In this document: positions 1-46,109 of the stretch, one piece after another
How positions within the stretch are numbered: position 1 is the first letter of the stretch
Layout: every line of letters starts with the position of its first letter
Assembly (NCBI RefSeq): GCF_026000115.1
Contig: NZ_AP026867.1
Span: forward strand, 2,585,716 to 2,649,715
Source of the DNA: Aureispira anguillae
GTDB taxonomy: Bacteria > Bacteroidota > Bacteroidia > Chitinophagales > Saprospiraceae
Direction of reading: 5' to 3'
Length of the DNA: 64,000 nucleotides
The notes under the pieces: generated by a model
What the model was told of the DNA's origin: nothing
What the model saw: only the letters and a program-made list of their open reading frames with translations
Database searches by the model: none
Translations under genes and position numbers: made by a program

Positions 1-61
1 CATGAACGAAGTGAGCTAATAGCTAAACAATTAAAATTAAATAAAGCAAGGGGTTAGTCGA
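1..61 (+). other. possible 3' end of an attC-like site (core GTTAGTC at 55-61)
   Basis: ...ggGTTAGTCgagcacccaat resembles the array-wide ending ccGTTAGGCaccatt; gaacgaagtgag at 4-15 resembles gaacgaagtgaa at 58821-58832 inside the attC-like site at 58801-58894. Confidence 0.25.
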
Positions 62-436
62 GCACCCAATATATGTTACGACAACCCCAAACGTAGCACT
101 CAAAAGCTATTCCAAAGCCACACTAATAAACAAACGAAAGACTATTCATTAAAAAAGTTTTTTTTTAATAAATAGTCTCTTTTTGATGAATTAATACTAT
201 TCTTATATACAAAGATTTGAACGTCACTATCAACCTAAAGGTCTTAGAAAGATTGCTTCACGTAATACTTGCCAACGCCCCTCTTCAAATTTTAATTCAA
301 TATTACATAAAAGCTTCATTTCTTCGCCATTCATTCCACTATGTTTGCGGGTTAAAACACAAACAGCTGTGTTTCCCAACAGGTGAAAATCGTGCCATTC
401 TGCCCAGGTATTAAGCTGCGCTTTCCCCTCTTTAGC

Positions 437-751
437 TTATTTGGCAAAGTGTGTTTTAAATTCTTCTTTATTATAAGTAATCACTTCATTGTTTGGCAGC
501 ACTAAAGTGGTATGAAAATCTTTATGATAAATAGTTTCTAACGCTTCTATATCATAATTGGTAGCTCGATCAATAAGATGCTCCATTGCTTTTTTTACCT
601 CTGCTTCCGAGTGTTCTCTTTTTATATCGTTGTTACAAGCTGTCTTTATCGTTAAAGTTATTAGCATGAATAATGCTTTAAATAGGATCATTGTCTTACT
701 TTGTTTGATCCCCAAAAAGGATTCTAAAAAAGTCTTAGTATCACAAATCAA
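437..751 (-). CDS. small secreted protein, possibly SnoaL/NTF2-like
   Basis: 104-aa ORF with N-terminal hydrophobic signal-like segment; fold assignment by composition and length only. Confidence 0.3.
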   Translation of the reverse strand: MICDTKTFLESFLGIKQSKTMILFKALFMLITLTIKTACNNDIKREHSEAEVKKAMEHLIDRATNYDIEALETIYHKDFHTTLVLPNNEVITYNKEEFKTHFAK

Positions 752-1613
752 TACCGTTTTGATAAGCTAATCTAAAATCCGTTGGGGAGTAATTGGTTTT
801 TTGCTTAAAAAATCGTGAAAGATGGTTGGGTTCCGAAAAATTATACCGATCTGCGATTTCAGAAATTGTCATTGTTGTATGTATCAATTTCATCTTAATC
901 TCAAATAGCAACCGAAGTTTTATAAACGATGTCACTGTTACATTAAATTGTTCTTTAACCACCTTATTTAAGGAAATTCGACTTATTCCAAGAAGGGCTG
1001 TATAATCTTCTACTCTATGGAGTTTATTAATATGTTTTTCTACCAACTGCCTAAAGTGATAAGCAGTATTATCCACTGAAATAGCATTTTTCAGATTATT
1101 TTCTACAGCATACAATCGGTTTAAAGAAATTAATATATAATAGAGCAAAGAACGTATCAAATGGACACTATCTGTTTTTGAATGGATTAGTTCTTCTTTT
1201 ATTTTAGCTAATTTCATAAGATTTTCACTTAGAATAACATCAGAAATTTTTAGACTTAATGGAAATTTTGTTTGGTAAAAATATAAGAATCGAAAGATGA
1301 AGAATTGGTCTGAAAAAAAATCATTCAAAAACTCATCTTGAAAAAGTAATAATTGCCCTTCAAATTGAGCATAATCAACATACCACGAGTAGTGCTGATG
1401 CTTTGATATAAATATCACTGAATTGGATTCTAATTCGATTTTTTTATCATTTAATAGAAGATAACCATTTGCTTTTTTTAGAAAATAGATTTGGAAAAAA
1501 TCAGCAGAAGTTGTCCTATAGTCTAATGCAAAAGGGCAATCCGATTGAAAGTCTATTACATTGAGTAATAAATTAACTCCACAAACCGTTTTATTAAATT
1601 CAATATATTTCAT
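741..1613 (-). CDS. AraC family transcriptional regulator
   Basis: C-terminal HTH_AraC signature (ISEIADRYNFSEPNHLSRFFKQKTNYSPTDFR); N-terminal effector-binding domain. Confidence 0.8.
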   Translation of the reverse strand: MKYIEFNKTVCGVNLLLNVIDFQSDCPFALDYRTTSADFFQIYFLKKANGYLLLNDKKIELESNSVIFISKHQHYSWYVDYAQFEGQLLLFQDEFLNDFFSDQFFIFRFLYFYQTKFPLSLKISDVILSENLMKLAKIKEELIHSKTDSVHLIRSLLYYILISLNRLYAVENNLKNAISVDNTAYHFRQLVEKHINKLHRVEDYTALLGISRISLNKVVKEQFNVTVTSFIKLRLLFEIKMKLIHTTMTISEIADRYNFSEPNHLSRFFKQKTNYSPTDFRLAYQNGIDL

Positions 1614-1628
1614 CCTTTAAAAATTTAA

Positions 1629-2459
1629 TTAGAATCTTAAAATTTCACCATCATTTGGTATCACAATATCTACTTGTTCATTTTTTGCCTTCTCACTTAC
1701 CATCTTACGAGTAGTTTTGCAATGATCTAACGCCTCCATATGAACTGCAATAATTTTTGCTGTTGGTGTAAACTTTGCCAATTCTACAACACTATTTTCA
1801 TCCATTAAGATTTTAGATTCCCCCCAAATTGCTCCTCCTGTATTAGCAATAATAATAGCTGGTTGATGTTCTCTTATTGTCTCCTTAATTTCAGCATCAA
1901 ATAAACAATCGCCAATTATATAAATAGTAGGTTGGCTCTTTGCCTTAAGGATATACCCAGAAACCTGCCCTAAATCTTCTAGCAAAGCATCAGGACCGTG
2001 TTTCCCTTTGGTTCTAATTATTGATGTATTCTTAAACTCCGTTTTTTCATTCACAACTGAATAATTAGAAAAAGGACCTTTTGAGAATACTTCTTTATCT
2101 GTAGGCTGGATAAAAAACGGCAGTTCAGAATTTAAATAATCTTTAGCCCCTTGATCAAAATGATCCAAATGACTATGAGTTAGCAAAACAGCATCAACAT
2201 TGTCAACAATATTTTTAATAGACAATGGTAAATCTACTGTTGGATTTAAATTTTCATTAGGAACAACAAATGACATAAATGATTTTGGAGGTGATAATGA
2301 AGGATCTACCATAAAGATAGTACCATTGTAATCAATTTTTAACGTGGCGTTTCTAATAAGTTGAATGCTAATTTTATTAGAATTTTTGTCTGTTAAAACG
2401 GTGCAAGCTCCCATAAGCATAAAGAATACGACTGTAATTAATAAATATTTGTTTTTCAT
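1629..2459 (-). CDS. secreted MBL-fold metallo-hydrolase
   Basis: signal peptide; HSHLDHFDQG (HxHxDH) motif. Confidence 0.8.
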   Translation of the reverse strand: MKNKYLLITVVFFMLMGACTVLTDKNSNKISIQLIRNATLKIDYNGTIFMVDPSLSPPKSFMSFVVPNENLNPTVDLPLSIKNIVDNVDAVLLTHSHLDHFDQGAKDYLNSELPFFIQPTDKEVFSKGPFSNYSVVNEKTEFKNTSIIRTKGKHGPDALLEDLGQVSGYILKAKSQPTIYIIGDCLFDAEIKETIREHQPAIIIANTGGAIWGESKILMDENSVVELAKFTPTAKIIAVHMEALDHCKTTRKMVSEKAKNEQVDIVIPNDGEILRF

Positions 2460-2919
2460 TTTAGTATTATTTTTAATGCAAAATTGAGGCTATTTAACAT
2501 TTTAAATACTACCATTTGTCGAAAAAAAACTACCATTTTGATAAAGATGGATGAAGTCCCATTGTTAATAGCCTTCCTGTACTGAATAATTGGAGCCATT
2601 CAATTAGCATACCTCCTATTCTCTATGCTTCATTCAAGCTATTGCCCCCCTTAGAATTCACCTTATAACTGTTGATTTAACTCTTTAAAGCCTGCAAATA
2701 ATTCGTGACACAGCTCATAGATTATAGTTTACCCTTTATAAAGTCAAGTTAACCAGTAATCTATTGAATATTGCGGTGCTTTTATTTATAATCTACCTTT
2801 AGACTAAAGAAGTAAATACCAAACCCTAGAATCCACAACCCCAATATAAATAAAGAGTCCAAAACCTAACTGTTTTCAAACAGAGTAGGAATTATTAAAA
2901 ATTTATTAAATTTTATATC

Positions 2920-3300
2920 ATGAAAAAATCGCTTTTAATTGCCTTTTTTAGTCTTTTATTTATTATTCCTTTATTCGCTGCGGAGGCGACTATTACGCTT
3001 AGTGGTGGTCGTAAAATCGTTGTCAATGACCCCAATCGTGATTGTCCTGAAATGAGACGAATGCTTGATAAGAAATATGGGGGTAAATGGGAGTTAGATG
3101 ATTGGGACTGTGATAAGGATGGAATCCATTATCCCAATGGAGGCATTGACCCTAATCCAGGTTCAGATATTATTCTTCAAATTGAATTACTTGAGGGAGA
3201 AGATCCTATACAAATTGAAGCAGAGCTTGCTGAACTGATACATTTTTTGACCAATAGTGGCGAAAATGTTCAAGTGCAATTTATCGTTGTTCATCATTAA
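2920..3300 (+). CDS. secreted hypothetical protein
   Basis: signal peptide (MKKSLLIAFFSLLFIIPLFA); followed by terminator hairpin. Confidence 0.5.
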   Translation: MKKSLLIAFFSLLFIIPLFAAEATITLSGGRKIVVNDPNRDCPEMRRMLDKKYGGKWELDDWDCDKDGIHYPNGGIDPNPGSDIILQIELLEGEDPIQIEAELAELIHFLTNSGENVQVQFIVVHH

Positions 3301-3306
3301 TGTAAT

Positions 3307-3336
3307 CTGTTCCCCAACGTATTGAGTTGGGGAACA
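3307..3336 (+). terminator. rho-independent terminator hairpin
   Basis: gttccccaac-gtattga-gttggggaac stem-loop directly after stop of 2920..3300. Confidence 0.5.
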
Positions 3337-3394
3337 TTTCTAAAAACAATATCAATTTTGCTAAATATAAAAACGCTCTAAAAGCCATCTTCAG

Positions 3395-3560
3395 CAACAC
3401 CAACAAACGATCAAAAAGCAGCCCACGATTAGCTTTGCTGCTAGGTTAGCTAGTGCGCTAGCGCTTATGAGCTCCCTAAGGTCGGTTCGTTATCACTCGT
3501 GAGCCAGCAAGCTGGGTTCTGCGTGGTTACTACCTGAGCCTATGGGTTATCAAAGAACCA
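3395..3560. ncRNA. candidate structured RNA (GC-rich island with multiple stems)
   Basis: locally GC-rich in an AT-rich background; stems agcagc/gctgct, gctag/ctagc, ccagc/gctgg; no ORF; not recognisable as tRNA. Confidence 0.2.
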
Positions 3561-3682
3561 AATTTATCAGACACCGTTTAATGAACAGCCCCCTTTTCTT
3601 TCTTATTCCTAAAGAGAAATAAGTGCCAATTGGCGGTTTTGTAACCATGTAATAATTCCGCATTAAGGAATAAAATAGAATT

Positions 3683-4654
3683 ATGAAATTATTGATGTTA
3701 ATAGTACTTTTTGCGCTTCCTAGTGGTTTGTCGGCTACCATGCAAATACCTGATACTGTAATTTATAAAACTAAAAAGTACACTTTAATTTTAAAAGGCT
3801 CTGCACTCCACTATTCTCCGCTGTGTTTCTATTATCTTCAAAATGATATATCAATGCCTTTCAATGCATGGTCATCTGCGGTAAAAAGAAGGCATATTGC
3901 GACATGGCAAATAATTGATAATAAACTTTTCCTAACCAAAGTAAATACCGTTGAAGGTCCTAAGCCTTTAAAAGACTGTCAAGTCCAATCCATCAGCAGT
4001 TCATTCAATACTCCCAATTTACTTTTTGCGGATTGGTTTAGTGGTATCTTCGCCTTTGGTTTTCATTGCTTTCATGTAAAAGAGGGGAAAATTATCCTTG
4101 ATAAAAAAATGTGTGACAATAATAACTACCTTTTCTTCTCTAGATGCATCATGAAGTTTGATTCTATCTATTCCAATAATCAATTGTATAGATTGACTAC
4201 TGGTTATTACAAAAAAAGTCCAATTTTTGATTACTTTGGTCAAGGTAGTAGTTTCTTAGATTGGCCCTATAACTGGGAAAATAAAAATCTATGTGGGGTA
4301 CCACTCTGTAAATGGAAAATAACAAACGATAGTTTATTTTTGGATGTTTTAAACCTATACACCTCAGAAGGAAAATGGATAAATTTCCTACAAGTGGGAG
4401 CAATAAAAAACATTACAAACCATAGCTTTGCGGACTGGGTTAATGGTGTTTATAGAATAGAAAAAGGCAAGATGGTTAAGGAGATTGTTTATGATGATGT
4501 AGAATGGGAGTTTTTTAAAGTTTCAGAATATCAATACATAAGGATTAAGAAAGGAGTAATCGTAGAATCTTTTGTTGTAGAACCTAACTTTGATATAAAA
4601 AATCCTCCTCCCAATACAGATCCTAAGGGCTTACAAATAATAGCAGATTACTAA
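3683..4654 (+). CDS. secreted hypothetical protein
   Basis: 323-aa ORF with signal peptide. Confidence 0.5.
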   Translation: MKLLMLIVLFALPSGLSATMQIPDTVIYKTKKYTLILKGSALHYSPLCFYYLQNDISMPFNAWSSAVKRRHIATWQIIDNKLFLTKVNTVEGPKPLKDCQVQSISSSFNTPNLLFADWFSGIFAFGFHCFHVKEGKIILDKKMCDNNNYLFFSRCIMKFDSIYSNNQLYRLTTGYYKKSPIFDYFGQGSSFLDWPYNWENKNLCGVPLCKWKITNDSLFLDVLNLYTSEGKWINFLQVGAIKNITNHSFADWVNGVYRIEKGKMVKEIVYDDVEWEFFKVSEYQYIRIKKGVIVESFVVEPNFDIKNPPPNTDPKGLQIIADY

Positions 4655-4825
4655 AAATGAGTTATAAAAAGAGCTTTAAAGCGTCTTCTAGATCTGGGGA
4701 TATAAAAAATTGGGCAGCAAAATCCGACGAATCTTGAGGCTAAAAAGTAAACTTTTTGCCCAGTTGCCCCCAATCACACAGAGAGTGTGCTTTAATTTAT
4801 AAATCAAAGCGACCTGTTTCTATCA

Positions 4826-4905
4826 TTCTATCAATCCGCCTTACCCAAAGCATCGTTCATCAGCTTATTAGAAAGATGCAAATAAACCATGGTTGGCAAA
4901 AGACT
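4826..4905 (-). pseudogene. tyrosine recombinase 3'-end remnant (copy A)
   Basis: minus-strand translation gives ...TMIYLHLSNKLMNDALGK; about 75% nucleotide identity to copies at 5926-6000 and 6880-6950. Confidence 0.5.
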
Positions 4906-4937
4906 AAAAACTTACATTTTCAAATAAAGGCAAAAAA

Positions 4938-5627
4938 TCAATCTTTAATACACCTACAAGAATATCCCTCTGTCTTATCATATCCAGCACGACTTACTCC
5001 TCCTAACCCTGTATTTATATCACGAGCAAATCCAGTCGAAGATGTATGTTCTGTTGCTGTCCAAAAGAAAGCACGATACCCAATTTTATTATATCCAGAA
5101 TAATAATTACCCGCAGGAAATGCATTAAAGCCTAAATCATTAGTTCCATTACCAGCATTAACCCATCCTGTTGTAGATTTCATTCCTGTTCCATGAGTAC
5201 CTCGCCATGAGCCATCAAGAGTAGCGGTATCTACAGCGGACATTCCCAATGTCATTTCTAATTCATTCCATTCAGAATCAGAAGGTAAGTGCCAACCAGA
5301 AGGACAAATACCCTGCACGCCACTTGGACTAGCAGAACTAGAAGTCGAACCATTCATTAGCGTTGCCCAGTCATATAAGCGCCCATAAGTAACGGATGGG
5401 TTACTTGGATTTAGCCATGAACCTGATGCATTGTAGCGTAAGTTTTCCGCCATCCAACATTGATCTCCTATTTTAACTACTGAATACGTTTCTCCATCTC
5501 TAGAATCGGTAATAGTAGAACATGCTCCATTATTTTGAGTTGTTATTGGAGCTTTCTCACAGCCTGTCCATAAAATTACCAGACTGGCTAAAATAAAGGT
5601 TAAAACGGTTAGTTTCTGCATCGTCAA
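4938..5627 (-). CDS. FISUMP-domain (Fibrobacter succinogenes major paralogous domain) lipoprotein
   Basis: lipobox LWTGC; GDQCWMAENLRY, LYDW, CPSGWHLPSDSEW and FFWTAT motifs. Confidence 0.7.
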   Translation of the reverse strand: MTMQKLTVLTFILASLVILWTGCEKAPITTQNNGACSTITDSRDGETYSVVKIGDQCWMAENLRYNASGSWLNPSNPSVTYGRLYDWATLMNGSTSSSASPSGVQGICPSGWHLPSDSEWNELEMTLGMSAVDTATLDGSWRGTHGTGMKSTTGWVNAGNGTNDLGFNAFPAGNYYSGYNKIGYRAFFWTATEHTSSTGFARDINTGLGGVSRAGYDKTEGYSCRCIKD

Positions 5628-5925
5628 TTTTTTTCATTAAAAATTGAGCGCTAAAAAAAGAAAGCAGCTCATTAAGTTATAATATACAACCCAATATATG
5701 ATTTTATCACTAAAAGGAAGAATCAACATAACAGGTATTTACAATCCAAATTGAGATACCTCTGGAAAGACTCTTTCAAGTAATAACTTTACTAGTTAAT
5801 ATTTTTTTACTACAAAAAAGCTCGCTCATTACATAATATCATTTGACTAAAACAAACTAAAAAATCATTTTCGGAGTGGACTTAAAATTAAATATTCCTC
5901 CTAAAGGACTAAATAACAACATCCA

Positions 5926-6120
5926 TCAATAATGAGCGAAAAACAGATGCAAATAAATCATGGTTGTTTCGATCTTAGCATGCTGTAGGATTGCCTTTAA
6001 AATATGAATCGGCACCTTAGCCGCCAAATCCGTTGCAAAGGTATGGCGAGCCACATGGCTTGTTACGGGCTTTAGTATCCCTGCGTCATAGGCAATCTTC
6101 TTTGATTTATGGTTTTTCAC
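5926..6120 (-). pseudogene. tyrosine recombinase (phage-integrase family) C-terminal fragment (copy B)
   Basis: 64-aa ORF with catalytic box II HVARHTFAT...LQHAKIETTMIYLHL; no N-terminal domains. Confidence 0.65.
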
Positions 6121-6185
6121 TATAATATTGTATATTTATCTTGATTTAATCCCCTACAAATCTTGTTCACTAAGCCCCCTTACAA

Positions 6186-6770
6186 ATGACAGATAGAGTC
6201 AATACAATACAGAAAAATGAATTAAACAAACATAAGCTTCATCAAAATGTAATTTCAAGCTTGTCTAACAAATTAGGCATTCCTGATTTAAGAGCACGAA
6301 ATATAACCATTCGAGATGAACGAAATTGGAGGATCAATGAGAAACAAATTGACTATTGTTGGTTAATCAATATATCCCGATCTTTGATTGGATCCTGCTG
6401 GTTATTTTCGATAAAATTCAATGAATGTATTTTTAGGGATATTAAAAATGAAACTGAATTGATCCAAGGAATTTTTACGATTGATAAACAAATTGAAATA
6501 GATAAGTTTTATAGCACTGTACAAGCTAAAAATTTTAAGGATAAAATAAAGGAATTAACTTCTTATGATATGTTTGATGTAAACTCTGGAATTACTTTAG
6601 ATGGCACTGGGTATGAATATTTAATTTTTAGCGTTAATGCTGAAATTAAGATGTCATTAAATAACCCAAATTCTAAAAATTGGAAAGTTTGGGAAGCTGA
6701 AGTATGGAGTATTGGTAAAGAATTAGCACAAAAATCAAAAATAAATAACTTAACAGAAATATTTGTATAA
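6186..6770 (+). CDS. hypothetical protein
   Basis: 194-aa ORF; no recognisable motif. Confidence 0.4.
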   Translation: MTDRVNTIQKNELNKHKLHQNVISSLSNKLGIPDLRARNITIRDERNWRINEKQIDYCWLINISRSLIGSCWLFSIKFNECIFRDIKNETELIQGIFTIDKQIEIDKFYSTVQAKNFKDKIKELTSYDMFDVNSGITLDGTGYEYLIFSVNAEIKMSLNNPNSKNWKVWEAEVWSIGKELAQKSKINNLTEIFV

Positions 6771-6840
6771 AACGATACTCATATTCCTTAATAATTGGAC
6801 AAAAAAGGAGTATTTAGGTAAAAAACTATTCGAACTACCC

Positions 6841-6950
6841 CTTTCCTTATCCCTGTGTCCACCCTACCCAGCGCATCATTCACCAACTTATTAAAAGGGT
6901 GCAAATAAATCATCGTTGCTTCAATCTTAGAATGCTGTAGAATCACCTAA
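6841..6950 (-). pseudogene. tyrosine recombinase 3'-end remnant (copy C), abutting first attC-like site
   Basis: gtgcaaataaatcatcgttgcttcaatcttagaatgctgtag parallels copy B; the translation ends as in copy A. Confidence 0.5.
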
Positions 6951-7011
6951 GGTGTGTATATAGTTATTTATAGCACTTGTATATGTAATTGTGTATACAA
7001 GTAAGTTGTGC
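6948..7011 (+). other. attC-like (or attI-like) site at start of cassette array
   Basis: cctaagGTGTGTATATAG ... gtgtatacaag ... GTTGTGC resembles the attC consensus aacaaaGTGTATAT ... catatacac ... GTTRRRY. Confidence 0.35.
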
Positions 7012-7098
7012 TTCATTGAAACTTTAGTTTTAAGAAAATTTAAATTGTGAATCTCATTTATTAATTTAACGTAGATACTTAAAATCTAAAGTAACATT

Positions 7099-10000
7099 AT
7101 GGAATCCCAAAGCAAATCTTTCGCATCTCCTTCTGAATTTTACAAGCTTAAAAGACCAGAATTTTTCTCTGACTCAAAGATTATCTATGAAGTCCAATTA
7201 ACAAAAGAACATCTAGCGTTAGAATTAGATCAAATCACTATCAATCAAAAGCAAGATGAATTTGAAACATTGTGTAGAAAATTAGCAGAAAAATTAATTG
7301 CTCCGAACTTAATCCCACAAGTTGGTCCTACTGGTGGAGGGGATGGTAAAACTGATTTCGAAACTCATCCCGTATCTCATCAAATTTCAGATAGATGGTT
7401 TGTAACTCAAGAGGGATGGAAAGAAACTGAAAAGTGGGCATTCGCAATTAGCGCAAAAAAAACATGGAAGTCCAAAGCTAAATCAGATATCATAAATATC
7501 TTAAGTACTAAACGTCCATACACTCATATTTTTTTCATGACAAATCAAAAACCGTCAAGTAAAAAAAAGAAAGAAGCTCAAGATTCATTTAAAGAAGAAT
7601 ATGGAATAGAGGTCACCATTCTTGATGGGGTCTGGATAATTGAAAAAATACTACAACATAACTTTATTGATTTGGTAGTAGATGCACTCAATTTATCTAA
7701 AGTTTATAAAGAAAAAAAAGTAATATTAGGTGCTAATGATGACTTAAGAGAAAAACAATTACGTGAATTAGAAGAAAAAATTTCAACTCCTAATAGATAC
7801 TTTGAATATGATTTTCAACGTGTAGAAGATGCGATTGAAGCTGCAATCATATCAAGAATGCTTGAAAAGCCAAGAGATGAAATTGAGGGAAAATTTCTAA
7901 GAGCAAAACGTTTTTGTAAAAAACTAAACAATCCTAAACAATGGCAAAGAATATATTATCAAAGGGCGTGGACATATATTCATTGGTTTGATGATTATGA
8001 AGCTTTCATTGAAGATTATAAACAATTTAAAAAACATATTTCCCTTGCTTGTAATATTTCAAGTATGGAATTATTCTTCAATTTTATAAGCCTTCTAAGA
8101 GGCTTAGAAGTTTCTGATGTTTGCAACTTAAATGAGTTAGGTATCTCATTCAAAGAGGAAAAAGCTGAATTCTTAGAATCTCTATCTAAATTCAACGATA
8201 CAAATAAAATTCCTTGTTCAACAGCGATTGCTCATACTTATAAAAATATCCAAAAATTAATTGATGCAAAAGTAGACGAATCCTCTATATACATAAAAGA
8301 GCTCTCTGAAGTATTAGTACAAGGTTCAAAATATTTAGATTATCCATTTGAGTATTTTACCGATATTTTCACCCTAATTGGCAATATTTTCCCAAATAAT
8401 GAAGAATTTGACAACTTAACAGATATCATAGCACAAATTACTTCAAAACGGCAATCAGACTTAGCAAGTGGAGAAGTTTTTTTAAATCGTGGACTTCAAA
8501 AAATTGAAGCTGAGTTGTTTAAAGAAAGTGTAGTTTTCTTTGGCAAAACCATTGTAAAACTAGCAAAAAAAGAAAGTAACGACTTAATGTATTTTGCTCT
8601 AAGAGGACTAGCAGAAGCTTATTATAGATTGGGTTTACTTTGGGCTGCGAATAACTGCCTTACAGCTTCTCTTTCTTTATCATTCAAATCGTGGTATGAA
8701 AAAGGAGTCATTCATAAAAGGGTATATGATTGTATAACTGCTTTAGCAAAGAATGAGTTAATAATTGGAAGAATTCCTTCTTATTTTTCGTGGCACGAAA
8801 ATCTACAAATTATTAGGAGAGAAATAAATCTTGATGAAATTCCAGCTGAAAAGTCCCCTTATAATATCCTAGACGTTTTTCTTGCAATAAAGCTATTAAA
8901 TACAAGTAATTCAGAAAACAAGTATTTAGCCAGAATCCCAAATCTTTTGGATGAAAAACATTTGTGGTTATCTCAAGATGCTTGTTTATACAAACTCGGT
9001 TATCTGGAAAGGATTAAAGAGAATTTCAAATCGGCAGGAATTAAAGATATGAAACAAATCGATGACTATTTCAGAAATTTAGCTACACAACCTGCTCAGA
9101 AAGAATTATTAAACCCAACGAATTTTCTTGGCGATGAAATCATTTATCTATCATCAATTATTTTAGGTTGTGAATTCAAGATTAAATGCATAAATGATAA
9201 AAGTCTAATTATAACTGTTGAAGCTTTCTTAGCATACTTTGAAACTTTTTTAGCTACTTCTTTAAAAAATGTTGTCCCAGCAACAGAGGAAATCTATCTT
9301 CATTTCAAACGAAATGAAGATTGCGAAATATTAACTTTTTCAAACAAAAACAAATCGAATGAGTATGATATTGAAATAGGGCATGCTACCTTTTCAATGG
9401 AAAATAGAAGTAAGTTATGGGAATTAATGATCAACTTAATATCCGATATACTTGGGCGAAATTTCTTTTTCGATGAAATTGAGAAATATCTTAAAAATCT
9501 CTTTCAAAAAGAAGAAATTTCAGAAAGACTGTCTATTGTGTTTGAGCATATTACATTCACTTATAACACATTAGGAGAGTCCCCTAAAATTCTATTAAAA
9601 GACTGGATTGACATTGAAAAAACAGAAAACTATTCTAATAAAAGAAGTACTCCACTAAATTATAAAACTGACCAAAACAACTCATCTTCAGAGCTTAATA
9701 ACCAAACACTTAATAATTATGGTCATAATAAAAGAAAAGCATATTCATTAATTGACGTCCCTCTTTGGGATGAAGCGGGTTGGATTTCTTTTGGTATTTT
9801 TCAGTATCAAAAGGGTATTGGAATTGCTCTAGGATTTAAAGACGCTAATTATGGAAAAAAGATATTTGATGGATGGATTAATAAAATGGGAACAACTGAT
9901 AAAGAAGAAATTATCAAAATATGTATCATCAAAGGTGTAAATAAGGCTCACCCTCATTGGTATAAAGTTTTAATCACATCTAACATGGTAAAAATGAATC

Positions 10001-10320
10001 ATCCTGATACACAAATATTTACTCTAACATCAAGATATAGAGAGTTTTTCCCTAACACTTCAACAAATCTTGACAACTTAATCATGGCCTATAAGCATAC
10101 GAAGAAATATCTACTATGTCCTGCTGAAACCATCAACAACACAGGTATAAAACCTTTTATTAATTACGGAATAATCAAAACAGAATTAACAATTAAAAAT
10201 GCGTGGGAAATCGGTATTCATGATATAGAAAAAGTCGTTATAAACAAAAAAGACATCCCAATTATTCCCAATAACATAAAAGAACCTCCTATCTTAAGTA
10301 TATTAAACTTAAAAGAATAA
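7099..10320 (+). CDS. large (1073 aa) protein with N-terminal Mrr-like (PD-(D/E)xK) restriction-endonuclease-like domain; candidate defense protein
   Basis: N-terminus FETLCRKLAEKLIAPNLIPQVGPTGGGDGKTDFE matches the Mrr_cat pattern (TgGxGDGGiD); rest alpha-helical, unrecognised. Confidence 0.4.
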   Translation: MESQSKSFASPSEFYKLKRPEFFSDSKIIYEVQLTKEHLALELDQITINQKQDEFETLCRKLAEKLIAPNLIPQVGPTGGGDGKTDFETHPVSHQISDRWFVTQEGWKETEKWAFAISAKKTWKSKAKSDIINILSTKRPYTHIFFMTNQKPSSKKKKEAQDSFKEEYGIEVTILDGVWIIEKILQHNFIDLVVDALNLSKVYKEKKVILGANDDLREKQLRELEEKISTPNRYFEYDFQRVEDAIEAAIISRMLEKPRDEIEGKFLRAKRFCKKLNNPKQWQRIYYQRAWTYIHWFDDYEAFIEDYKQFKKHISLACNISSMELFFNFISLLRGLEVSDVCNLNELGISFKEEKAEFLESLSKFNDTNKIPCSTAIAHTYKNIQKLIDAKVDESSIYIKELSEVLVQGSKYLDYPFEYFTDIFTLIGNIFPNNEEFDNLTDIIAQITSKRQSDLASGEVFLNRGLQKIEAELFKESVVFFGKTIVKLAKKESNDLMYFALRGLAEAYYRLGLLWAANNCLTASLSLSFKSWYEKGVIHKRVYDCITALAKNELIIGRIPSYFSWHENLQIIRREINLDEIPAEKSPYNILDVFLAIKLLNTSNSENKYLARIPNLLDEKHLWLSQDACLYKLGYLERIKENFKSAGIKDMKQIDDYFRNLATQPAQKELLNPTNFLGDEIIYLSSIILGCEFKIKCINDKSLIITVEAFLAYFETFLATSLKNVVPATEEIYLHFKRNEDCEILTFSNKNKSNEYDIEIGHATFSMENRSKLWELMINLISDILGRNFFFDEIEKYLKNLFQKEEISERLSIVFEHITFTYNTLGESPKILLKDWIDIEKTENYSNKRSTPLNYKTDQNNSSSELNNQTLNNYGHNKRKAYSLIDVPLWDEAGWISFGIFQYQKGIGIALGFKDANYGKKIFDGWINKMGTTDKEEIIKICIIKGVNKAHPHWYKVLITSNMVKMNHPDTQIFTLTSRYREFFPNTSTNLDNLIMAYKHTKKYLLCPAETINNTGIKPFINYGIIKTELTIKNAWEIGIHDIEKVVINKKDIPIIPNNIKEPPILSILNLKE

Positions 10321-10327
10321 AAACGAA

Positions 10328-10525
10328 GCACAACAAAGTGTATATTTCCATGACAGATTTCGGGAACAATCTTACAAGAATGAACGCATGAATTACACCG
10401 CAAAATCTGCGATTTTGCCACTAGTCGTAAAACAATTTACTGGCAAAATCGCAGATTTTGCTCAGGGAACAGCTATATTTATATTCGCATGACGCCTGTC
10501 ACGGAATATACACGGGCCGTTGTCC
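10328..10525 (+). other. attC-like site (long class)
   Basis: inverse core GCACAAC 8 bp after the stop; core GTTGTCC (reverse complement GGACAAC); internal palindrome caaaatctgcgattttgcc...ggcaaaatcgcagattttg. Confidence 0.6.
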
Positions 10526-10552
10526 ACCATTAAAAAAGAATAAATCATCGAA

Positions 10553-11140
10553 ATGAATTCCGCAGAACAGATATTTCAATTTTTAAACAAGGTTAGTAGG
10601 TTATCATTTCAATCATGGTCGTCTATGGTTGCGTACGCAATGGAGATTCAATTAAAAAAGGATGACTACTTCGTTAAAGAAGGAGAGGTCTCAAAGGAAA
10701 TAGGTTTCTTAACAAAAGGAATTGTTCGCTCCTACTATATTTCAAAGGAAGGAAAGGAATACAACAAAACGCTATTTGCAGCACCTAATATTATTGGCTC
10801 TTATGTTTCAATAATTACAGGGCAACCCAATCGTTTGCCTCAGCAAGCATTAACGGATTGTACGATTACTAAAATTCCCATGAGCGTTATTGAAAATCTA
10901 TCGAAAGAGCAAATAGAAATTGAGCGATTACGCAGAAAAATAGCAGAAATGTTTTTTGTGCTGAAAGAGAAGAGAGAACTCGAAATGGCTCTTTTGCAGG
11001 CAGAAGAACGATATTTAATTTTTCGGGAAGAATATCCAGGTGTAGAACAATTAATACCTCAATACCACATTGCATCTTACCTTGGTATCAGTGCAACTCA
11101 ACTTAGTCGAATCCGAAAAAAAATGAGCCTCCAATCATAG
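10553..11140 (+). CDS. Crp/Fnr-family transcriptional regulator
   Basis: cNMP-binding-like N-terminal domain; C-terminal HTH (ASYLGISATQLSRIRKK). Confidence 0.65.
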   Translation: MNSAEQIFQFLNKVSRLSFQSWSSMVAYAMEIQLKKDDYFVKEGEVSKEIGFLTKGIVRSYYISKEGKEYNKTLFAAPNIIGSYVSIITGQPNRLPQQALTDCTITKIPMSVIENLSKEQIEIERLRRKIAEMFFVLKEKRELEMALLQAEERYLIFREEYPGVEQLIPQYHIASYLGISATQLSRIRKKMSLQS

Positions 11141-11217
11141 TTCTTTACCTATGTAAATGACATTCATGCTCCAAGACTCTAATTTTGTAGTGTATTTTTT
11201 CACCAAAAAGAGTCATC

Positions 11218-11628
11218 ATGAGAAATAAAGATTTTCCACTTTTCACAGGTTTGTTTATACTGGCTGCCCTATGGAATCTTATAGGAGCAGGATTTGGTTA
11301 TTTCAATACCGAATACACTTTTCAGGGATTGTTTGAAAGAGAACTTAATGACCCGCTATTTTACGAAATATATAGAGGCGCATGGGGCACAACTTTGATG
11401 TTTTTCATTGGATATTTATTAGTTGCCTATAATCCGATTAAACATTCAGGTGTGGCATTAATTGGAGGAATAGGAAAATTGGCTTTTGCAATCGCAGAAC
11501 TACAATTATATCTTTCTGGGCTTGCCAATTCCATAATCTTAATCATCGTAGTTGGCGACTTTACCTTTTGTGCATTATTTGTTTATTACTTTATAAAGTT
11601 CTACACCAACAAAAAAGCAATCATATAA
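11218..11628 (+). CDS. integral membrane protein
   Basis: 136 aa, four predicted TM segments. Confidence 0.5.
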   Translation: MRNKDFPLFTGLFILAALWNLIGAGFGYFNTEYTFQGLFERELNDPLFYEIYRGAWGTTLMFFIGYLLVAYNPIKHSGVALIGGIGKLAFAIAELQLYLSGLANSIILIIVVGDFTFCALFVYYFIKFYTNKKAII

Positions 11629-11640
11629 ACCCCATCAATT

Positions 11641-12225
11641 ATGAAAATAGTAGCATTGCTTATATTCACATTGGTCAGCATAATCAATATTTATGCACAG
11701 GATAAATGGAAACTCGTAAAAAATAAAAATGAAATTAAAGTGTATGTTAGCGAAATTTCGGGTAGTAACTATTATGCATTCAAAGCCGTCATGACTGTAA
11801 AATCAACCGAAGCGGAAATAATTGAAGTCCTTAGGAATGTGAGTAATTACCCTGAGTGGTTTGCATTTACTGCATCCGCAAAATTGATTCAACAAACAAC
11901 GAATGAGCAGATCTTCTTCATGGAAACTGACTATCCTTGGCCATTTTCAAATGAATGTATGAACTATAATATGAGATTTGTGAAAGAGCAAGGTAAAAAC
12001 CAAAAAATTACAATTACTGAAACAGACAAAAAGGTAGATTGTAAATATTCATTAAAAAAAGCAAGTGGCTACATTTTGCTCGAACCAGATAAAGGGAATA
12101 CAAGAATAAGCTACTATTTCCATTCCGAACCTTCACAAAATATTCCATCGTGGCTTATTAACCCAAGGATACATGAAATGCCTTATCAAACTTTTATATC
12201 ATTAAAAGAACAGCTAAATATTTAA
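11641..12225 (+). CDS. secreted SRPBCC/START-like lipid-binding domain protein
   Basis: signal peptide; length and pattern (NYPEWF...) similar to START/Bet v1-like proteins. Confidence 0.35.
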   Translation: MKIVALLIFTLVSIINIYAQDKWKLVKNKNEIKVYVSEISGSNYYAFKAVMTVKSTEAEIIEVLRNVSNYPEWFAFTASAKLIQQTTNEQIFFMETDYPWPFSNECMNYNMRFVKEQGKNQKITITETDKKVDCKYSLKKASGYILLEPDKGNTRISYYFHSEPSQNIPSWLINPRIHEMPYQTFISLKEQLNI

Positions 12226-14824: not shown

Positions 14825-16198
14825 ATGAGTTTAATAAGACCTAGACTAAATGATTTTCATAATATCCCTATTACCCAAGAAGAAGTCGATTTTGCAATTC
14901 CTTTTTTAGATGAGGATATACCTCTTTATGTTGACCCTTTCTTATTATGGAAATCACCTTCTATGCAAGATAATTCTTTGCACCTCACGATAACAAATAG
15001 TTTTAACAATTTAGGTTACTTAGCTTCTCAGAACAAAGAAAAAGAAGCTCTTGAGATATTAATTAGAGCATCAGAATGCAATGAAGTCGGACTAGGTAAC
15101 TCTAAAACAAAAGTAGGAAAACGTATAGGGAAAAAACTAGCCAGTGATGTATTAGATCAATTTTCTACTATTCCCCAATTAAATAAAAACGGATTTATTC
15201 ACTTTGAAGAAATACAGCTATTAGTTGACAATTTTTCAAAAGACAGGGTAAGTGATATTGCATGTAATTTCATTCAATCATTTCTTGTTGATTTCACAAT
15301 CGAACAAGCTGAAAAACATGGCATTCCTATCGAACAAGTTTTATTAAAAAATATCTATAATACTAAAACTCATTCTTTTCAAGAAGAAAAAACTCATTTA
15401 CCAGTTAACCCAATAACCAAAGAACCTATTCTTCTTGTGCCCAAAAGGTGGTTAAAATATATCCCCTGGATTAATTCAGATGATTACTTCAAAAGTTATT
15501 ATTTAAAGAATATTCATAAAAAGGGGGATGCTATTCTTGACAGAGTAAAGCTTCTAAGCTTTAATAGACACAATTACGATATTGTTCAGGCATATACATC
15601 AATTAAAGAAAAGCATTTTGAAAATTGTAAGAATGATCCTCTATTTTCTCAGATACCCATTACATCTGCAAAAAGAAAAATCTCCACAATTCTAAAACTA
15701 CCAACAGGAAAGACAGATAACGCAGATCGTAAATATGAGGATAATACTTGTCAGTTCTTAACATCCTTAGTTTATCCACATTTAGATTTTGCACAAGAAC
15801 AAAGTAGAACTGAGTCAGGTGTTCAAATCAGAGATTTAATTTTTTACAATAATGCTTCTACCCCATTTTTAAAGGAAATATATAACACTTACGATTGTCG
15901 CCAAATTGTGATGGAACTAAAAAATGTGAAAGAAATTCAACAAAGTCACATTCTTCAACTAAACAGATATTTAAAAGATCAATTTGGACGATTTGGAGTT
16001 ATTATTACAAGAAATCCACCACCTAAAAAGGTTATTAAAAATATAATTGATTTATGGTCAGCCTATAGAAAATGTATTTTGGTTTTGGATGATTCAGATT
16101 TTAAAATGATGACTCAAGTATTTGAAAGTAAACAACGTGACCCAATTGAGGTAATCAAAAAAAAATATATAGAATTTACAAGAGCTTGCCCATCATAA
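14825..16198 (+). CDS. hypothetical protein (457 aa)
   Basis: long ORF, no recognisable catalytic motif. Confidence 0.45.
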   Translation: MSLIRPRLNDFHNIPITQEEVDFAIPFLDEDIPLYVDPFLLWKSPSMQDNSLHLTITNSFNNLGYLASQNKEKEALEILIRASECNEVGLGNSKTKVGKRIGKKLASDVLDQFSTIPQLNKNGFIHFEEIQLLVDNFSKDRVSDIACNFIQSFLVDFTIEQAEKHGIPIEQVLLKNIYNTKTHSFQEEKTHLPVNPITKEPILLVPKRWLKYIPWINSDDYFKSYYLKNIHKKGDAILDRVKLLSFNRHNYDIVQAYTSIKEKHFENCKNDPLFSQIPITSAKRKISTILKLPTGKTDNADRKYEDNTCQFLTSLVYPHLDFAQEQSRTESGVQIRDLIFYNNASTPFLKEIYNTYDCRQIVMELKNVKEIQQSHILQLNRYLKDQFGRFGVIITRNPPPKKVIKNIIDLWSAYRKCILVLDDSDFKMMTQVFESKQRDPIEVIKKKYIEFTRACPS

Positions 16199-18334: not shown

Positions 18335-18560
18335 GGGAAGCCTACATCAGGCACTCGAATTCCAGTTCCATCAATCGCCAATAGTCGGTATCCTTTCCAA
18401 TATTTTATTCCTCGATTGCTTCGATAAAAAAGTTGGCAACTATAAGAAAATAAGTCTTCAAAAAAACAAACCTTAATCTTTGAACGAGCTAAGGCTAATG
18501 CTGTCTTTGTTGGTGGGCACCTTGATCTAAATAGTCTTGAGTGGGAGATTAATTCGGCGT

Positions 18561-18755
18561 TTACACTTTTTTTAAAAGACCTAATATCAATCCTACCGTT
18601 GTTGCAAAATCTAATTTGCGATGTCTTGTAAAATCTTGTTCTGGGCGAATCAAATAGGTCGCCCGTTTTTGGGCTGTTAAACTCGCCAAAATTATAAATA
18701 ATTTTAGCTTCTTTAATTGTGCTGTTAAGCTTAGTAGTTTTTTGTCACGTTTCAT
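18561..18755 (-). pseudogene. N-terminal fragment of IS4/IS5-superfamily transposase
   Basis: 64-aa ORF near-identical to 31565..31759. Confidence 0.6.
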
Positions 18756-19095
18756 CCCCTAAATATATGTTTTTTCTGACTACTTTCCTTAACTTTATGG
18801 CAGTGAACAAGAAATATACGTCAATCCCACATCTTGGGCTAAAGCTAAAGTTCATTCGTATGTAACACTACGCAAAATCGCAGATTTTGCTAGTACTCGA
18901 AGAAAAAATTACTAGCAAAATCTGCGATTTTGCTTTGGGATTAGCTATATTCCTATTCGTATAACTTGTGGCACTGCGTATATCAAGACGTTGTCATCAA
19001 TTCAAAGAAAAATCATTACGCAAATACACTGCGCAGCAACTTTTTAACTTTGAGTCTCAGTAAAAAATCTAATCTAGGACTTAAAAATAAAAACT

Positions 19096-24825: not shown

Positions 24826-24830
24826 CGCCA

Positions 24831-25024
24831 CTTAACAAGAAATATACGTCAATCCCACATCTTGGGCTAAAGCTAAAGTTCATTCGTATGTAACACTACG
24901 CAAAATCGCAGATTTTGCTAGTACTCGAAGAAAAAATTACTAGCAAAATCTGCGATTTTGCTTTGGGATTAGCTATATTCCTATTCGTATAACTTGTGGC
25001 ACTGCGTATATCAAGACGTTATAG
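24831..25024 (+). other. attC-like site (long class)
   Basis: CTTAACAAgaaatatacg...gcaaaatcgcagattttgctagtactcgaagaaaaaattactagcaaaatctgcgattttgc...gcgtatatcaagacGTTATAG; near-identical to 18811-18996. Confidence 0.65.
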
Positions 25025-29135: not shown

Positions 29136-30105
29136 CTAAAAGGCTGGCTTGTAGTTTTTTTCTGTCATATACCGTTCATTCAATCTCATTTGCTTGCGTG
29201 TTCTTTTTGTTGGTGGTCGTATTCGGACGCTTTCATAATAGCGTTTTATTAGGTTAATCGCAGCTTTAACATATACTCCTTGATGCTCTGAAAGCAACAA
29301 ATCAAACCAATCTTTTTTCACTATAGTAATTGCTATATTTCTATTTATTTGACCCTTCAGTTTTTGTCCATTCAATTCTTTTTCTGCTACATGAATAAAC
29401 ATCGAGCGAATATTGTAAAAGATCAACACCGACCATAAATCCTGTAAAACAAATTGGGCTTTGTAACCTGAAAATACACCTAATTTTAGTTGATTTTTAA
29501 GCTCATCAAAAGCTGTTTCCTCTCCCCACCTTTTAGAATATAAATCTTTAAATTCTTCTCTGCTAAACTTATTCTTATCCAATAAATTCGTTGCTAAAAC
29601 CTCGGTTGTTCCATTCGGTAATTCTACTCGAAGTAACCTTATTTTGAAGGTTGAAAATTTTGGATGCTTATTTTTTAAGCCATACTTATCTCTTGCTGAA
29701 TAATAAGCTCTTTCACCTAACCGAAATTCTACTATGCTATCAGTATCTCCACTTTTTAAAAAATTTTCTACTGCTTTTATTCCCTTTATTTTCATTCTTA
29801 TCAAGCAGGGCTTTCTCGATTTTAAGTGGCGGTCTAATAGTAAACTATCGCAATAATGGCGATCATAGATCATGATTGAGTTGCTAGGAAGAATTTCAAA
29901 TTTTTGATGAAGGGCAACCAACTCTGCTACTGATCTTGGATGTAAATGCACATGATAGAATACTCGATTCAATACATCATGTATCGCTAATATCTTGCAG
30001 GCTGCTATTGCTCCATATTGGTTCTTGTGAACACCTATTAAGCATCTATTTTCTTCCGTATCAGGCACTCGAATTCCAATTCCATCAATCGCCAATAGTT
30101 GGTAT
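29136..30105 (-). pseudogene. IS4/IS5-superfamily DDE transposase, 5' part severed by IS3-B insertion
   Basis: the N-terminal MGYTS residues of the tracked ORF come from the IS3-B terminus; DDE_Tnp_1 YREK signature present. Confidence 0.65.
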
Positions 30106-30141
30106 TGAGGTATTGAGGTGTACCCCATTTATAGGACCAGT

Positions 30142-31050: not shown

Positions 31051-31055
31051 GGGCT

Positions 31056-46104: not shown

Positions 46105-46109
46105 AGCCC

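What the first reader, a model, noticed from the sequence alone, without database searches (positions are those of the whole stretch)
4826..7011. Three diverged tyrosine-recombinase 3'-end remnants upstream of the array; the last abuts the first attC-like site
Copies A (4826-4905), B (5926-6120, encoding HVARHTFAT...LQHAKIETTMIYLHL) and C (6841-6950) all encode the box II end of a tyrosine recombinase on the minus strand, transcribed away from the cassettes. They share only about 75% identity, so they are old independent relics and not recent duplicates. Copy C runs straight into an attC/attI-like sequence (6948-7011) that opens the first cassette. This is the position and orientation expected for a decayed intI, and would make the array a degenerate integron. 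Copies A and B may mark earlier decayed platforms or serial integration of related elements. The box II motif alone cannot assign them to IntI.
Basis: partly seen in the sequence, partly recalled or inferred. Interest (0 to 1): 0.55.

Follow-up and report, generated by a model that had tools for sequence, protein, structure and literature searches.

The report
Decayed island integrases beside cassette array
The three recombinase scraps are real, but they are worn-out copies of an ordinary tRNA-island/phage-type integrase, not of an integron integrase; intact relatives of this integrase do recur at the far end of the same kind of gene-cassette array, and the short sequence next to the third scrap is a conserved array-entry site.

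Summary
Three minus-strand C-terminal tyrosine-recombinase fragments exist: A 4807-4895, B 5945-6117 and C 6830-6947. No intact recombinase lies in the 64 kb window, which comes from Aureispira anguillae.

The IntI reading is rejected. The fragments are 76-85% identical to intact 387-aa paralogs in the same genome. Those paralogs have the Arm-DNA-bind_5 + Phage_int_SAM_5 + Phage_integrase architecture, lack the IntI extra domain, and score about 50 bits on TIGR02249 against a cutoff of 265.

In 6 of about 16 close relatives the layout is tRNA, then int, then a terminator, then attC sites and cassettes on the opposite strand. The integrase therefore sits at the distal end of its array and converges on it. 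Each fragment here belongs with the cargo on its left, not with the large array on its right.

A and B look like one gene split by a 1049-bp insertion flanked by 22-bp direct repeats.

Site 6953-7009 is not an attC. It is a conserved attI-like element found once, at the proximal array boundary, in three other loci.

Best reading: eroded units from serial integration, abutting a large array of attC sites with no IntI in the window or in any fetched locus. Whether the genome encodes an IntI elsewhere is untested.

The parts
4807..4895 (-). Fragment A: the last 20 codons plus the stop of an Arm-type integrase (4834-4893), followed by 26 nt of the family's terminator left arm (4807-4833).
   Evidence: tblastn. 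blastn to L003 2798-2823 and comparison with relatives.
4874..4895 (.). Direct repeat copy 1 (AGATGCAAATAAACCATGGTTG), covering the T-M-V-Y-L-H-L codons.
   Evidence: Fuzzy search finds it at 4874 and 5945 (1 mismatch), and at 6897 (4 mismatches, inside C).
4896..5944 (-). 1049-bp insertion that splits one integrase gene into B and A. It carries a Fib_succ_major lipoprotein gene (4938-5627, minus strand).
   Evidence: Int tail + repeat on the A side, repeat + int body on the B side. Pfam PF09603, E 8.9e-33.
5945..5966 (.). Direct repeat copy 2.
5945..6117 (-). Fragment B: integrase codons 317-373 (box II H-x-x-R-H and the catalytic Tyr). It is truncated at the 5' end near 6117 and loses homology after YLHL. 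It is annotated in NCBI as a 64-aa 'tyrosine-type recombinase' (ORF 5926-6120).
6186..6770 (+). 194-aa ORF antisense to the integrase fragments, lying 86 nt beyond C's former stop. It occupies the position of the convergent cargo gene seen after intact family members. No Pfam or PADLOC match.
   Evidence: Architecture of relatives.
6830..6947 (-). Fragment C: integrase codons 358-386 (6857-6943) plus a decayed stop/terminator region. It is truncated at the 5' end at 6947/6948.
6953..7009 (+). attI-like site: three TGTATAT-type repeats (6953-6963, 6976-6985, 6989-7000) followed by AAG|TTGTGC. It marks the proximal boundary of the cassette array.
   Evidence: The 20-nt core TGTATATGCAATTGTGTATA (up to 3 mismatches) occurs once each in the window, L005, L091 and L167 within 1.6 Mb. 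It always has the same orientation and lies 39-130 nt upstream of the most proximal cassette ORF. It is the best attC-model hit in 4560-7120, but only 9.8 bits, E 0.59. It does not fold like an attC.
7003..10525 (+). First cassette: 1073-aa ORF (7099-10320) plus the first clear attC (10329-10525).
   Evidence: CM R1 gives 164.8 bits. The bottom strand folds with z = -7.8 and R''/R' paired.
3683..4654 (+). 323-aa ORF convergent on fragment A, ending 180 nt from A's stop. It is the putative leftover cargo of the A/B unit. No attC is detectable between them.

Best explanation
The three pieces are pseudogene remnants of a multi-copy Aureispira family of 387-aa integrases with an arm-binding domain. 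These integrases belong to tRNA-integrating, prophage-like islands. In intact members the order is tRNA, integrase, intrinsic terminator, a cargo slot read on the opposite strand (often filled with integron-type attC cassettes), an attI-like site, and then a repressor/excisionase module.

The window shows the eroded left-hand remains of older units. Fragments B and A are one integrase gene, interrupted at the catalytic-Tyr codons by a 1049-bp insertion with 22-bp direct repeats, and they go with the cargo to the left. Fragment C goes with the 194-aa ORF on its left.

These remains are joined, through a deletion ending at 6947/6948, to the attI-like entry site of a much larger and younger cassette array. 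That array's own integrase and tRNA, if present, should lie beyond the right end of the window.

Shown: the family assignment, the non-IntI status, the architecture of relatives and the conservation of the attI-like site. Inferred: serial accretion followed by deletion, and the location of the array's own integrase.
For: Family identity:
- B is 100% identical to an A. anguillae protein.
- The fragments are 76-85% identical to intact paralogs P0161 and P0165.
- Full-length relatives have Arm-DNA-bind_5 + Phage_int_SAM_5 + Phage_integrase.
- tRNA genes lie just upstream of the integrase in L004, L006-L008, L089/90, L093/94 and L098.

Architecture of relatives:
- attC sites of the same family (58-142 bits) lie on the strand opposite the integrase. 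They start 44-64 nt after the stop in L089/90, L091/92, L093/94, L099 and L167, and 2.5 kb after it in L005. Antisense ORFs lie between them.
- L167 shows a whole unit: tRNA-Leu hot spot, integrase, 2-3 cassettes, attI-like site, HTH repressor-like gene, MerR/HTH_17 excisionase-like gene.
- Convergent cargo directly after the integrase also occurs in members without attC sites (L002, L168, L172).

Partial duplication elsewhere:
- L002 has an intact integrase, a 609-nt single-gene stretch, and then a 59-nt duplicate of the integrase 3' end carrying the original terminator.

A/B junction:
- The 22-nt repeat matches 21/22, with the int tail on one side and the int body on the other.

Assembly:
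- Short-read contigs of the same strain break at 4864-4890. This break is inferred from contig coordinates and would be expected if the integrase 3' end is repeated in the genome.
Against: - No tRNA gene or tRNA-derived attR is detectable in the window.
- No island core genes (repressor/excisionase) lie between the fragments, so large deletions must be assumed.
- The predicted integrase and tRNA at the array's right end could not be checked. The array runs at least 10 kb past the window.
- All three remnants, and the L002 duplicate, retain the last 20-30 codons or so. Random deletion endpoints would rarely give this, so something specific to the integrase 3' end may be at work.
- The origin of the 1049-bp insertion is unexplained. 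It carries no recombinase or IS features, and the flanking integrase sequence does not fold like an attC.
- Only 6 of about 16 distinct close relatives have attC sites next to the integrase.
Confidence: 0.6

Rival explanations
1. Decayed integron integrase. Copy C, and perhaps A and B, are relics of the intI that built the array, sitting divergently next to attI.
For: C is on the strand opposite the cassettes and directly abuts a conserved attI-like site. The C-terminal 80 residues of the family align with IntI1 at about 37% identity, as many tyrosine recombinases do.
Against: Intact relatives and same-genome paralogs have an arm-binding N-terminus. They have 93 rather than 133 residues between box I and box II. 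They score 48-54 bits on TIGR02249 (cutoff 265), matching only profile positions 233-303. C's 3'-terminal 29 codons abut the site, whereas an intI would present its 5' end to attI. Intact family members sit at the other end of arrays.
Confidence: 0.03
2. The integrase 3' end is itself a recombination target. Small single-gene elements, or other islands, insert site-specifically at the Tyr-codon region (TTTATTTGCAT) of resident integrase genes, displacing the old 3' ends. A, C and the L002 duplicate would then be displaced 3' ends, not deletion survivors.
For: The 22-bp direct repeats flanking the 1049-bp insert lie exactly over the TMxYLHL codons. The L002 59-nt duplication starts at the LHL codons and preserves the integrase ORF, and the downstream copy keeps the native terminator. 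The 5' ends of A, C and the L002 copy cluster at codons 358-371 of 387.
Against: There are only two clear cases. C's breakpoint is 9 codons from A's. L026 has a longer fragment (aa 60-108 of the 111-aa query) and L001 an internal deletion. No similarity links the repeat to tRNA attB sequences. No mobilising function lies in the inserts. The sequence has no attC-like fold.
Confidence: 0.2
3. The Arm-type integrase, not an IntI, is the cognate recombinase of these cassette arrays. This would be an IntI-independent integron analogue, and the fragments would be former array recombinases.
For: The physical linkage of this clade to attC sites of one family is recurrent and position-fixed, across loci whose integrases are only 54-84% identical. 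No IntI-like gene is found in the window or in any of about 170 fetched loci, including three arrays whose attI-like end is in view. Complete integrons were rare in Bacteroidetes in RefSeq as of 2022 (PMC9024848).
Against: The attC sites are textbook IntI substrates: R'' RYYYAAC, R' GTTRRRY, an unpaired central spacer and bulged bases. Recognition of such sites is known to depend on the IntI-specific domain, which this family lacks. The integrase is at the wrong end of the array and next to a tRNA, as expected for an island integrase. Many family members have no attC sites nearby. An IntI elsewhere in the genome was not excluded.
Confidence: 0.1

Closest known systems
Bacteroidota arm-binding tyrosine integrases of integrative elements and prophages (Pfam Arm-DNA-bind_5 + Phage_int_SAM_5 + Phage_integrase)
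   Same: Same domain architecture in all full-length relatives. They lie next to tRNA genes, and an excisionase-like and a repressor-like gene sit in the same element.
   Different: In a subset, the cargo slot directly behind the integrase is an integron-type attC cassette array ending in a conserved attI-like site.
Integron integrase IntI (TIGR02249 / PRK15417)
   Same: Tyrosine recombinase with box II and the catalytic Tyr. It lies on the strand opposite the cassettes, and one remnant touches an attI-like site.
   Different: It has no IntI extra domain and does have an arm-binding domain. Scores are far below cutoff. Intact copies are at the distal end of arrays and converge on them.
CALIN (cluster of attC sites lacking an integron integrase), including CALINs in phages and prophages (PMC4889954; PMC9892861)
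   Same: The array here has many attC sites and no intI within the window. The 2023 phage survey reports CALINs in phages, some preceded by an attI site or lying just after a terminator.
   Different: The array is very large (more than 57 kb in the window, and more than 67 kb counting the extension in a contig from another sample), it is in Bacteroidota, and it is recurrently tied to one island-integrase clade.
rAID-1 recombinase-associated arrays of Bacteroidales (Ross et al., bioRxiv 10.1101/471110)
   Same: A tyrosine recombinase next to an array of small accessory genes with repetitive intergenic sequences, in Bacteroidota.
   Different: rAID-1 has an intact XerD-like recombinase at the 5' end, co-directional with the genes. 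Here the integrase is arm-type, convergent and distal, and the repeats are true attC sites.

Membership tests
Integron integrase (IntI) | IntI-specific additional domain (about 35-40 aa) between box I and box II; passes TIGR02249 / PRK15417 | tested here: not met
   The fragments do not cover this region. In same-genome paralogs and close relatives, the box I to box II spacing is 93 aa against 133 in IntI1. TIGR02249 scores are 48-54 bits against a cutoff of 265, and only profile positions 233-303 match. A positive-control IntI1 scores 799 and 509 bits.
Integron integrase (IntI) | No N-terminal arm-type DNA-binding domain | tested here: not met
   Arm-DNA-bind_5 is present (E 1e-14 to 2e-19) in the three full-length relatives tested with Pfam and is precomputed for the hits listed.
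Integron integrase (IntI) | Gene adjacent to attI at the proximal end of the array, with its 5' end facing attI | tested here: not met
   Intact relatives lie at the distal end, with the last attC 44-64 nt after the stop. C meets the attI-like site with a truncated 3'-terminal piece.
Arm-type island/phage integrase (Arm-DNA-bind_5 + SAM_5 + Phage_integrase) | Catalytic C-terminal domain of this clade | tested here: met
   B matches PF00589 at 1.4e-12. A, B and C are 76-85% identical to P0161 and P0165. The profile search returns 380-420-aa proteins.
Arm-type island/phage integrase (Arm-DNA-bind_5 + SAM_5 + Phage_integrase) | Located beside its tRNA attachment site | tested here: not met
   No tRNA in the window and no tRNA-derived repeat in 1-12000. 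The feature is met in relatives.
Integron cassette array / CALIN | Two or more attC sites (R''-L''...L'-R', folded bottom strand), same orientation, one per cassette | tested here: met
   There are 11 long attC sites (77-192 bits) and four textbook short ones at 13882, 22701, 25815 and 34455, plus weaker candidates. All are on the plus strand and intergenic. Folding gives z = -7.8 for the first, and classical shapes for the short ones.
Integron cassette array / CALIN | No intI nearby (this defines CALIN as opposed to a complete integron) | tested here: met
   tblastn with validated IntI1 finds only box II-level hits to the three fragments. The rest of the genome was not examined.
attC site (for 6948-7011) | Imperfect palindrome with R''/R' and L''/L' pairing | tested here: not met
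   There is no R''. The fold is a small internal hairpin only (z = -2.7). The CM gives 9.8 bits, E 0.59, in a 2.5-kb search and nothing at E <= 10 in the whole window.
attI-type site (for 6953-7009) | Unique site at the proximal end of the array, ending in G|TTRRRY, with repeated putative recombinase-binding motifs, conserved between arrays of one lineage | tested here: met
   It occurs once per locus, at the proximal boundary, in the window, L005, L091 and L167. Recombination activity is not testable with these tools.
rAID-1 | Intact XerD-like recombinase 5' of, and co-directional with, the gene array | tested here: not met
   The fragments are on the opposite strand and belong to a different recombinase architecture.

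The most novel reading that the evidence does not exclude
Aureispira (Saprospiraceae) carries a distinct integron-like platform built into tRNA-integrating, prophage-like elements. A conserved attI-like site and an attC cassette slot lie between the element's arm-type integrase and its repressor module, with no IntI in cis. The arrays could then be mobilised as a whole by the island integrase. They might also be serviced by a recombinase other than IntI, either the arm-type integrase itself or an unknown factor. In that case the integrase 3' end fragments would be scars of that platform's turnover.
Probability: 0.15. Interest if true: 0.85.

Novelty: new member of a known kind. Interest (0 to 1): 0.45.

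Why it matters
Taken alone, the remnants are ordinary integrase pseudogenes and do not make the array a 'degenerate integron with a decayed intI'. Following them up gave three useful results.

1. It supplies a rule for reading this locus: the integrase belongs to the cassettes on its 3' side.

2. It identifies a conserved attI-like entry site for a Bacteroidota cassette array.

3. It shows that one clade of island integrases is repeatedly and precisely joined to attC arrays, with no IntI in any fetched locus.

Complete integrons are very rare in Bacteroidota genomes. If no IntI exists in these genomes, how the arrays grow to more than 60 kb becomes an open mechanistic question. If an IntI does exist, these are CALINs carried by tRNA-integrating elements, which is a route for moving whole cassette banks, including defence genes, between strains.

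Tried and rejected
- rAID-1 analogy. I had recalled from memory that rAID-1 arrays contain recombinase-end repeats. The paper describes only a co-directional 5' XerD-like gene and intergenic motifs, so this was rejected.
- tRNA-derived attR near the fragments or at 6948-7098. blastn-short with nine tRNA-plus-leader regions of relatives gave only chance matches.
- Pseudo-attC formed by the integrase 3' end, which would allow IntI insertion at the GTTG in the TTM codons. The three fragment regions do not fold better than shuffles (z = -0.1 to -0.8).
- Decayed attC between ORF 3683-4654 and fragment A. The CM gives 4.4 bits, E 5.6, so there is no evidence for it.
- My own AAC...GTT palindrome heuristic missed the known first attC and was discarded.
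- Synteny in sister strains at the left end. Exact-protein look-ups for ORFs 741-1613, 3683-4654 and 7099-10320 returned only short-read contigs of the same strain. P0001 was not on record.
- The A. anguillae chromosome itself was not among the returned loci in the genome collection, and the NCBI copy was not retrievable.
- Walking to the array's right end was not possible beyond about 10 kb.
- No IntI-like gene was found in any fetched locus.
- Literature searches for Aureispira or Saprospiraceae integrons found nothing relevant.
Full report
SOURCE AND OBSERVATION

The window is 32% G+C. It comes from Aureispira anguillae (Saprospiraceae, Bacteroidota): the 64-aa ORF at 5926-6120 is 100% identical to an NCBI protein of that species, from a 7.58-Mb contig.

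tblastn with family members finds exactly three significant matches in the 64 kb, all on the minus strand:
- A, 4893-4834: TMVYLHLSNKLMNDALGKAD*.
- B, 6114-5944: ...VTSHVARHTFATDLAAKVPIHILKAILQHAKIETTMIYLHL, then the unrelated FFAHY*.
- C, 6943-6857: ILQHSKIEATMIYLHPFNKLVNDALGRVD, with the native stop lost.

On a 387-codon reference these are codons 367-386, 317-373 and 358-386. B alone passes Pfam Phage_integrase (E 1.4e-12). There is no other tyrosine-recombinase signal in the window and no tRNA. Nucleotide identities in the overlaps are 21/22 (A-B), 80% (A-C) and 89% (B-C).

WHAT FAMILY

A profile of the C-terminal pieces retrieves 380-420-aa proteins. Close full-length relatives were found in Saprospiraceae/Aureispira MAGs and in marine metagenomes. 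They are 386-397 aa with Arm-DNA-bind_5 + Phage_int_SAM_5 + Phage_integrase.

A. anguillae itself encodes at least five intact paralogs: P0161, P0165, P0168, P0170 and P0175. The fragments are 76-85% identical to P0161 and P0165.

Against NCBIfam, these proteins score 48-54 bits on the integron-integrase model TIGR02249 (cutoff 265). They match only profile positions 233-303, which is the generic box II end. An IntI1 sequence used as positive control scores 509 and 799 bits. The box I to box II spacing is 93 residues against 133 in IntI1, so the IntI-specific domain is missing. The fragments are therefore not IntI relics.

CONTEXT: THE ARRAY IS A GENUINE attC CASSETTE ARRAY

A palindrome pair GCAAAATCNNNGATTTTGC recurs 19 times, against 0.1 expected. 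It lies inside 139-198-nt imperfect palindromes bounded by xxxAAC...GTTxxxx. A covariance model built from 11 of them also finds textbook 65-67-nt attC sites at 13882, 22701, 25815 and 34455. An example is GCCAAC...GTTAGGT. All are on the plus strand and between plus-strand ORFs.

The first long site (10329-10525) folds as a hairpin with z = -7.8 and R''/R' paired. The short sites adopt the classical R-box / spacer / bulged L-box shape.

The array continues at least 10 kb past the window, judged from a contig of another sample that shares the last window gene. No IntI-like gene is present in the window.

THE UNEXPECTED LINK

Searching the relatives' loci with the same attC model shows that this integrase clade is repeatedly joined to attC sites of this family.
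- In L089/90, L091/92, L093/94, L099 and L167, an attC (58-106 bits) lies on the strand opposite the integrase. It starts 44-64 nt after the stop codon, directly after the integrase terminator hairpin. Antisense ORFs and further attC sites follow.
- L005 has a 142-bit attC 2.5 kb downstream.
- A tRNA gene precedes the integrase in most loci.
- L001, L167 and L168 share one tRNA-Leu hot spot with the same chromosomal neighbours.

L167, from a 181-kb contig, shows a complete small unit: tRNA-Leu region, integrase, 2-3 cassettes, a short conserved site, an HTH repressor-like gene, and then a divergent MerR/HTH_17 excisionase-like gene with further element genes.

Other members carry non-cassette convergent cargo (L002, L168, L172) or phage genes (L173). 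About 6 of 16 distinct close relatives have the attC linkage.

In this family the integrase therefore sits at the distal end of the cassette array and converges on it. This is the opposite of intI.

THE SITE AT 6948-7011

It is not an attC. It has no R'' and no attC-like fold. The model gives only 9.8 bits (E 0.59) in a 2.5-kb search, although that is the top hit there.

However, 6953-7009 matches sequences at the proximal edge of the arrays in L005, L167 and L091. The 20-nt core TGTATATGCAATTGTGTATA (up to 3 mismatches) occurs once in each of these loci and once in the window across 1.6 Mb. It always has the same orientation relative to the cassettes and lies 39-130 nt upstream of the most proximal cassette ORF.

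The site consists of two or three TGTATAT-type repeats, which is the same motif as the L boxes of the attC sites, followed by about 6 nt and GTTRNNN. That is what an attI would look like.

In L005 and L167 the site is preceded by a shared terminator plus an AT-rich stretch. In the window that stretch is replaced by fragment C, about 5 nt from the first repeat.

READING THE LOCUS

Using the family rule that cargo lies 3' of the integrase and is antisense to it:
- Fragment C belongs with ORF 6186-6770, which is plus-strand and ends 86 nt from C's former stop.
- Fragment A belongs with ORF 3683-4654, which is plus-strand and ends 180 nt from A's stop.

A retains 26 nt of the terminator's left arm.

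A and B overlap on a 22-nt direct repeat (4874-4895 and 5945-5966, 21/22 identical). The int tail lies left of the first copy and the int body right of the second. This is the signature of a 1049-bp insertion into one gene at the TMxYLHL codons. The insert carries a Fib_succ_major lipoprotein gene. Two independent truncations would coincide like this only about 2% of the time, by my estimate.

L002 offers a parallel. It has an intact integrase, then 609 nt with one antisense gene, then a 59-nt, 93%-identical duplicate of the integrase 3' end that keeps the native terminator.

The large array to the right of C cannot be C's own. Under the unit model its integrase and tRNA lie beyond the window.

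The simplest history is serial integration of related units, followed by deletions. The last deletion fused C's codon 358 to the edge of the attI-like site.

WEAKNESSES

- No att remnants were found and no island core genes survive here.
- The right end of the array is unseen.
- Only extreme 3' pieces are retained (A, C and the L002 copy begin at codons 358-371). This is hard to explain by random deletion and suggests the integrase 3' end may be a preferred recombination point. It does not fold like an attC.

COMPARISON WITH KNOWN SYSTEMS

- CALINs, including ones in phages, with an attI at their start or just behind a terminator, are documented (PMC4889954, PMC9892861).
- Integrons are reported in Bacteroidota (PMC8618304). 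Complete ones were nearly absent from RefSeq Bacteroidetes in 2022 (PMC9024848).
- rAID-1 arrays have a co-directional 5' XerD-like recombinase and are not comparable.
- I found no paper on Aureispira or Saprospiraceae integrons.

VERDICT

The fragments are ordinary pseudogenes of an island/phage-type integrase. They are a new member of a known kind, and the intI interpretation fails.

The value of the finding lies in what the follow-up showed. There is a conserved attI-like site. One arm-type integrase clade is linked in a fixed position to attC arrays, with no IntI in any locus examined.

I could not test whether an IntI exists elsewhere in these genomes. That single check decides between 'CALINs riding on tRNA islands' and something more novel.

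Noticed in passing
window 10329-64000 (and beyond, L083): The whole right-hand 54 kb is an integron-type cassette array. It has 11 long attC sites (139-198 nt, with paired GCAAAATCNNNGATTTTGC palindromes), four textbook short attC sites and further weak candidates, all on the plus strand. It continues at least 10 kb past the window end, judged from a contig of another sample. No IntI is present in the window.
   Followed up: partly
window 30111-31395 and 45765-47049: Two 1285-bp, 100%-identical inverted copies of an IS (rve/HTH_21 transposase, 302 aa) bracket 14.4 kb of the array. A DDE_Tnp_1 transposase gene sits at 29136-30128. This creates potential for inversion or composite-transposon behaviour inside the array.
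   Followed up: no
window 14825-16198 and 31986-33719: Some cassette genes match anti-phage defence models: PDC-M36A (812 bits, full length) and HEC-06/Orf5/SspE-like. The array may be a defence-gene bank, as reported for sedentary chromosomal integrons.
   Followed up: partly
window 18388-18992 vs 31392-31821, 24829-25020, 36132-36512: Cassette ends with their attC sites are duplicated at 95-99% identity at several positions in the array (repeat families D1, D3, D4). This suggests recent cassette duplication or rearrangement.
   Followed up: no
window 7099-10320: The first cassette encodes a 1073-aa protein with no Pfam or PADLOC match. This is unusually large for a cassette.
   Followed up: partly
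window 4864-4890: Short-read (Logan) contigs of the same strain end and start in a 27-nt overlap inside fragment A (inferred from contig coordinates). This is consistent with the integrase 3' end being a genome-wide repeat; alternatively it could reflect structural heterogeneity at this point.
   Followed up: no
L002 1117-1175 and 1785-1843: In a MAG, an intact family integrase is followed by a 609-nt stretch with one antisense gene (weak GIY-YIG match) and then a 59-nt duplicate of the integrase 3' end with the original terminator. This parallels the B/A split in the window.
   Followed up: partly
L001 4837-5327: At the tRNA-Gly/tRNA-Leu hot spot shared with L167 and L168, the integrase carries an in-frame-looking internal deletion (codons 1-41 joined to 265-387). 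This is another mode of decay in this family.
   Followed up: no
L005 6190-6400 and L167 12940-13165 (reverse strand): Upstream of the attI-like site, these two loci share a terminator plus an AT-rich stretch of about 75 nt (TTTGCYTTTATGTATG...TTTTATAGRATATT). It could hold the promoter that drives the cassettes. In the window it is missing and is replaced by fragment C.
   Followed up: no
L004, L001, L089, L093, L098 (between tRNA and int): Repeated TTGTTACC / TTGGTACC motifs lie upstream of the integrase genes and are likely arm-type binding sites. They differ from the TGTATAT repeats of the attI-like site.
   Followed up: no
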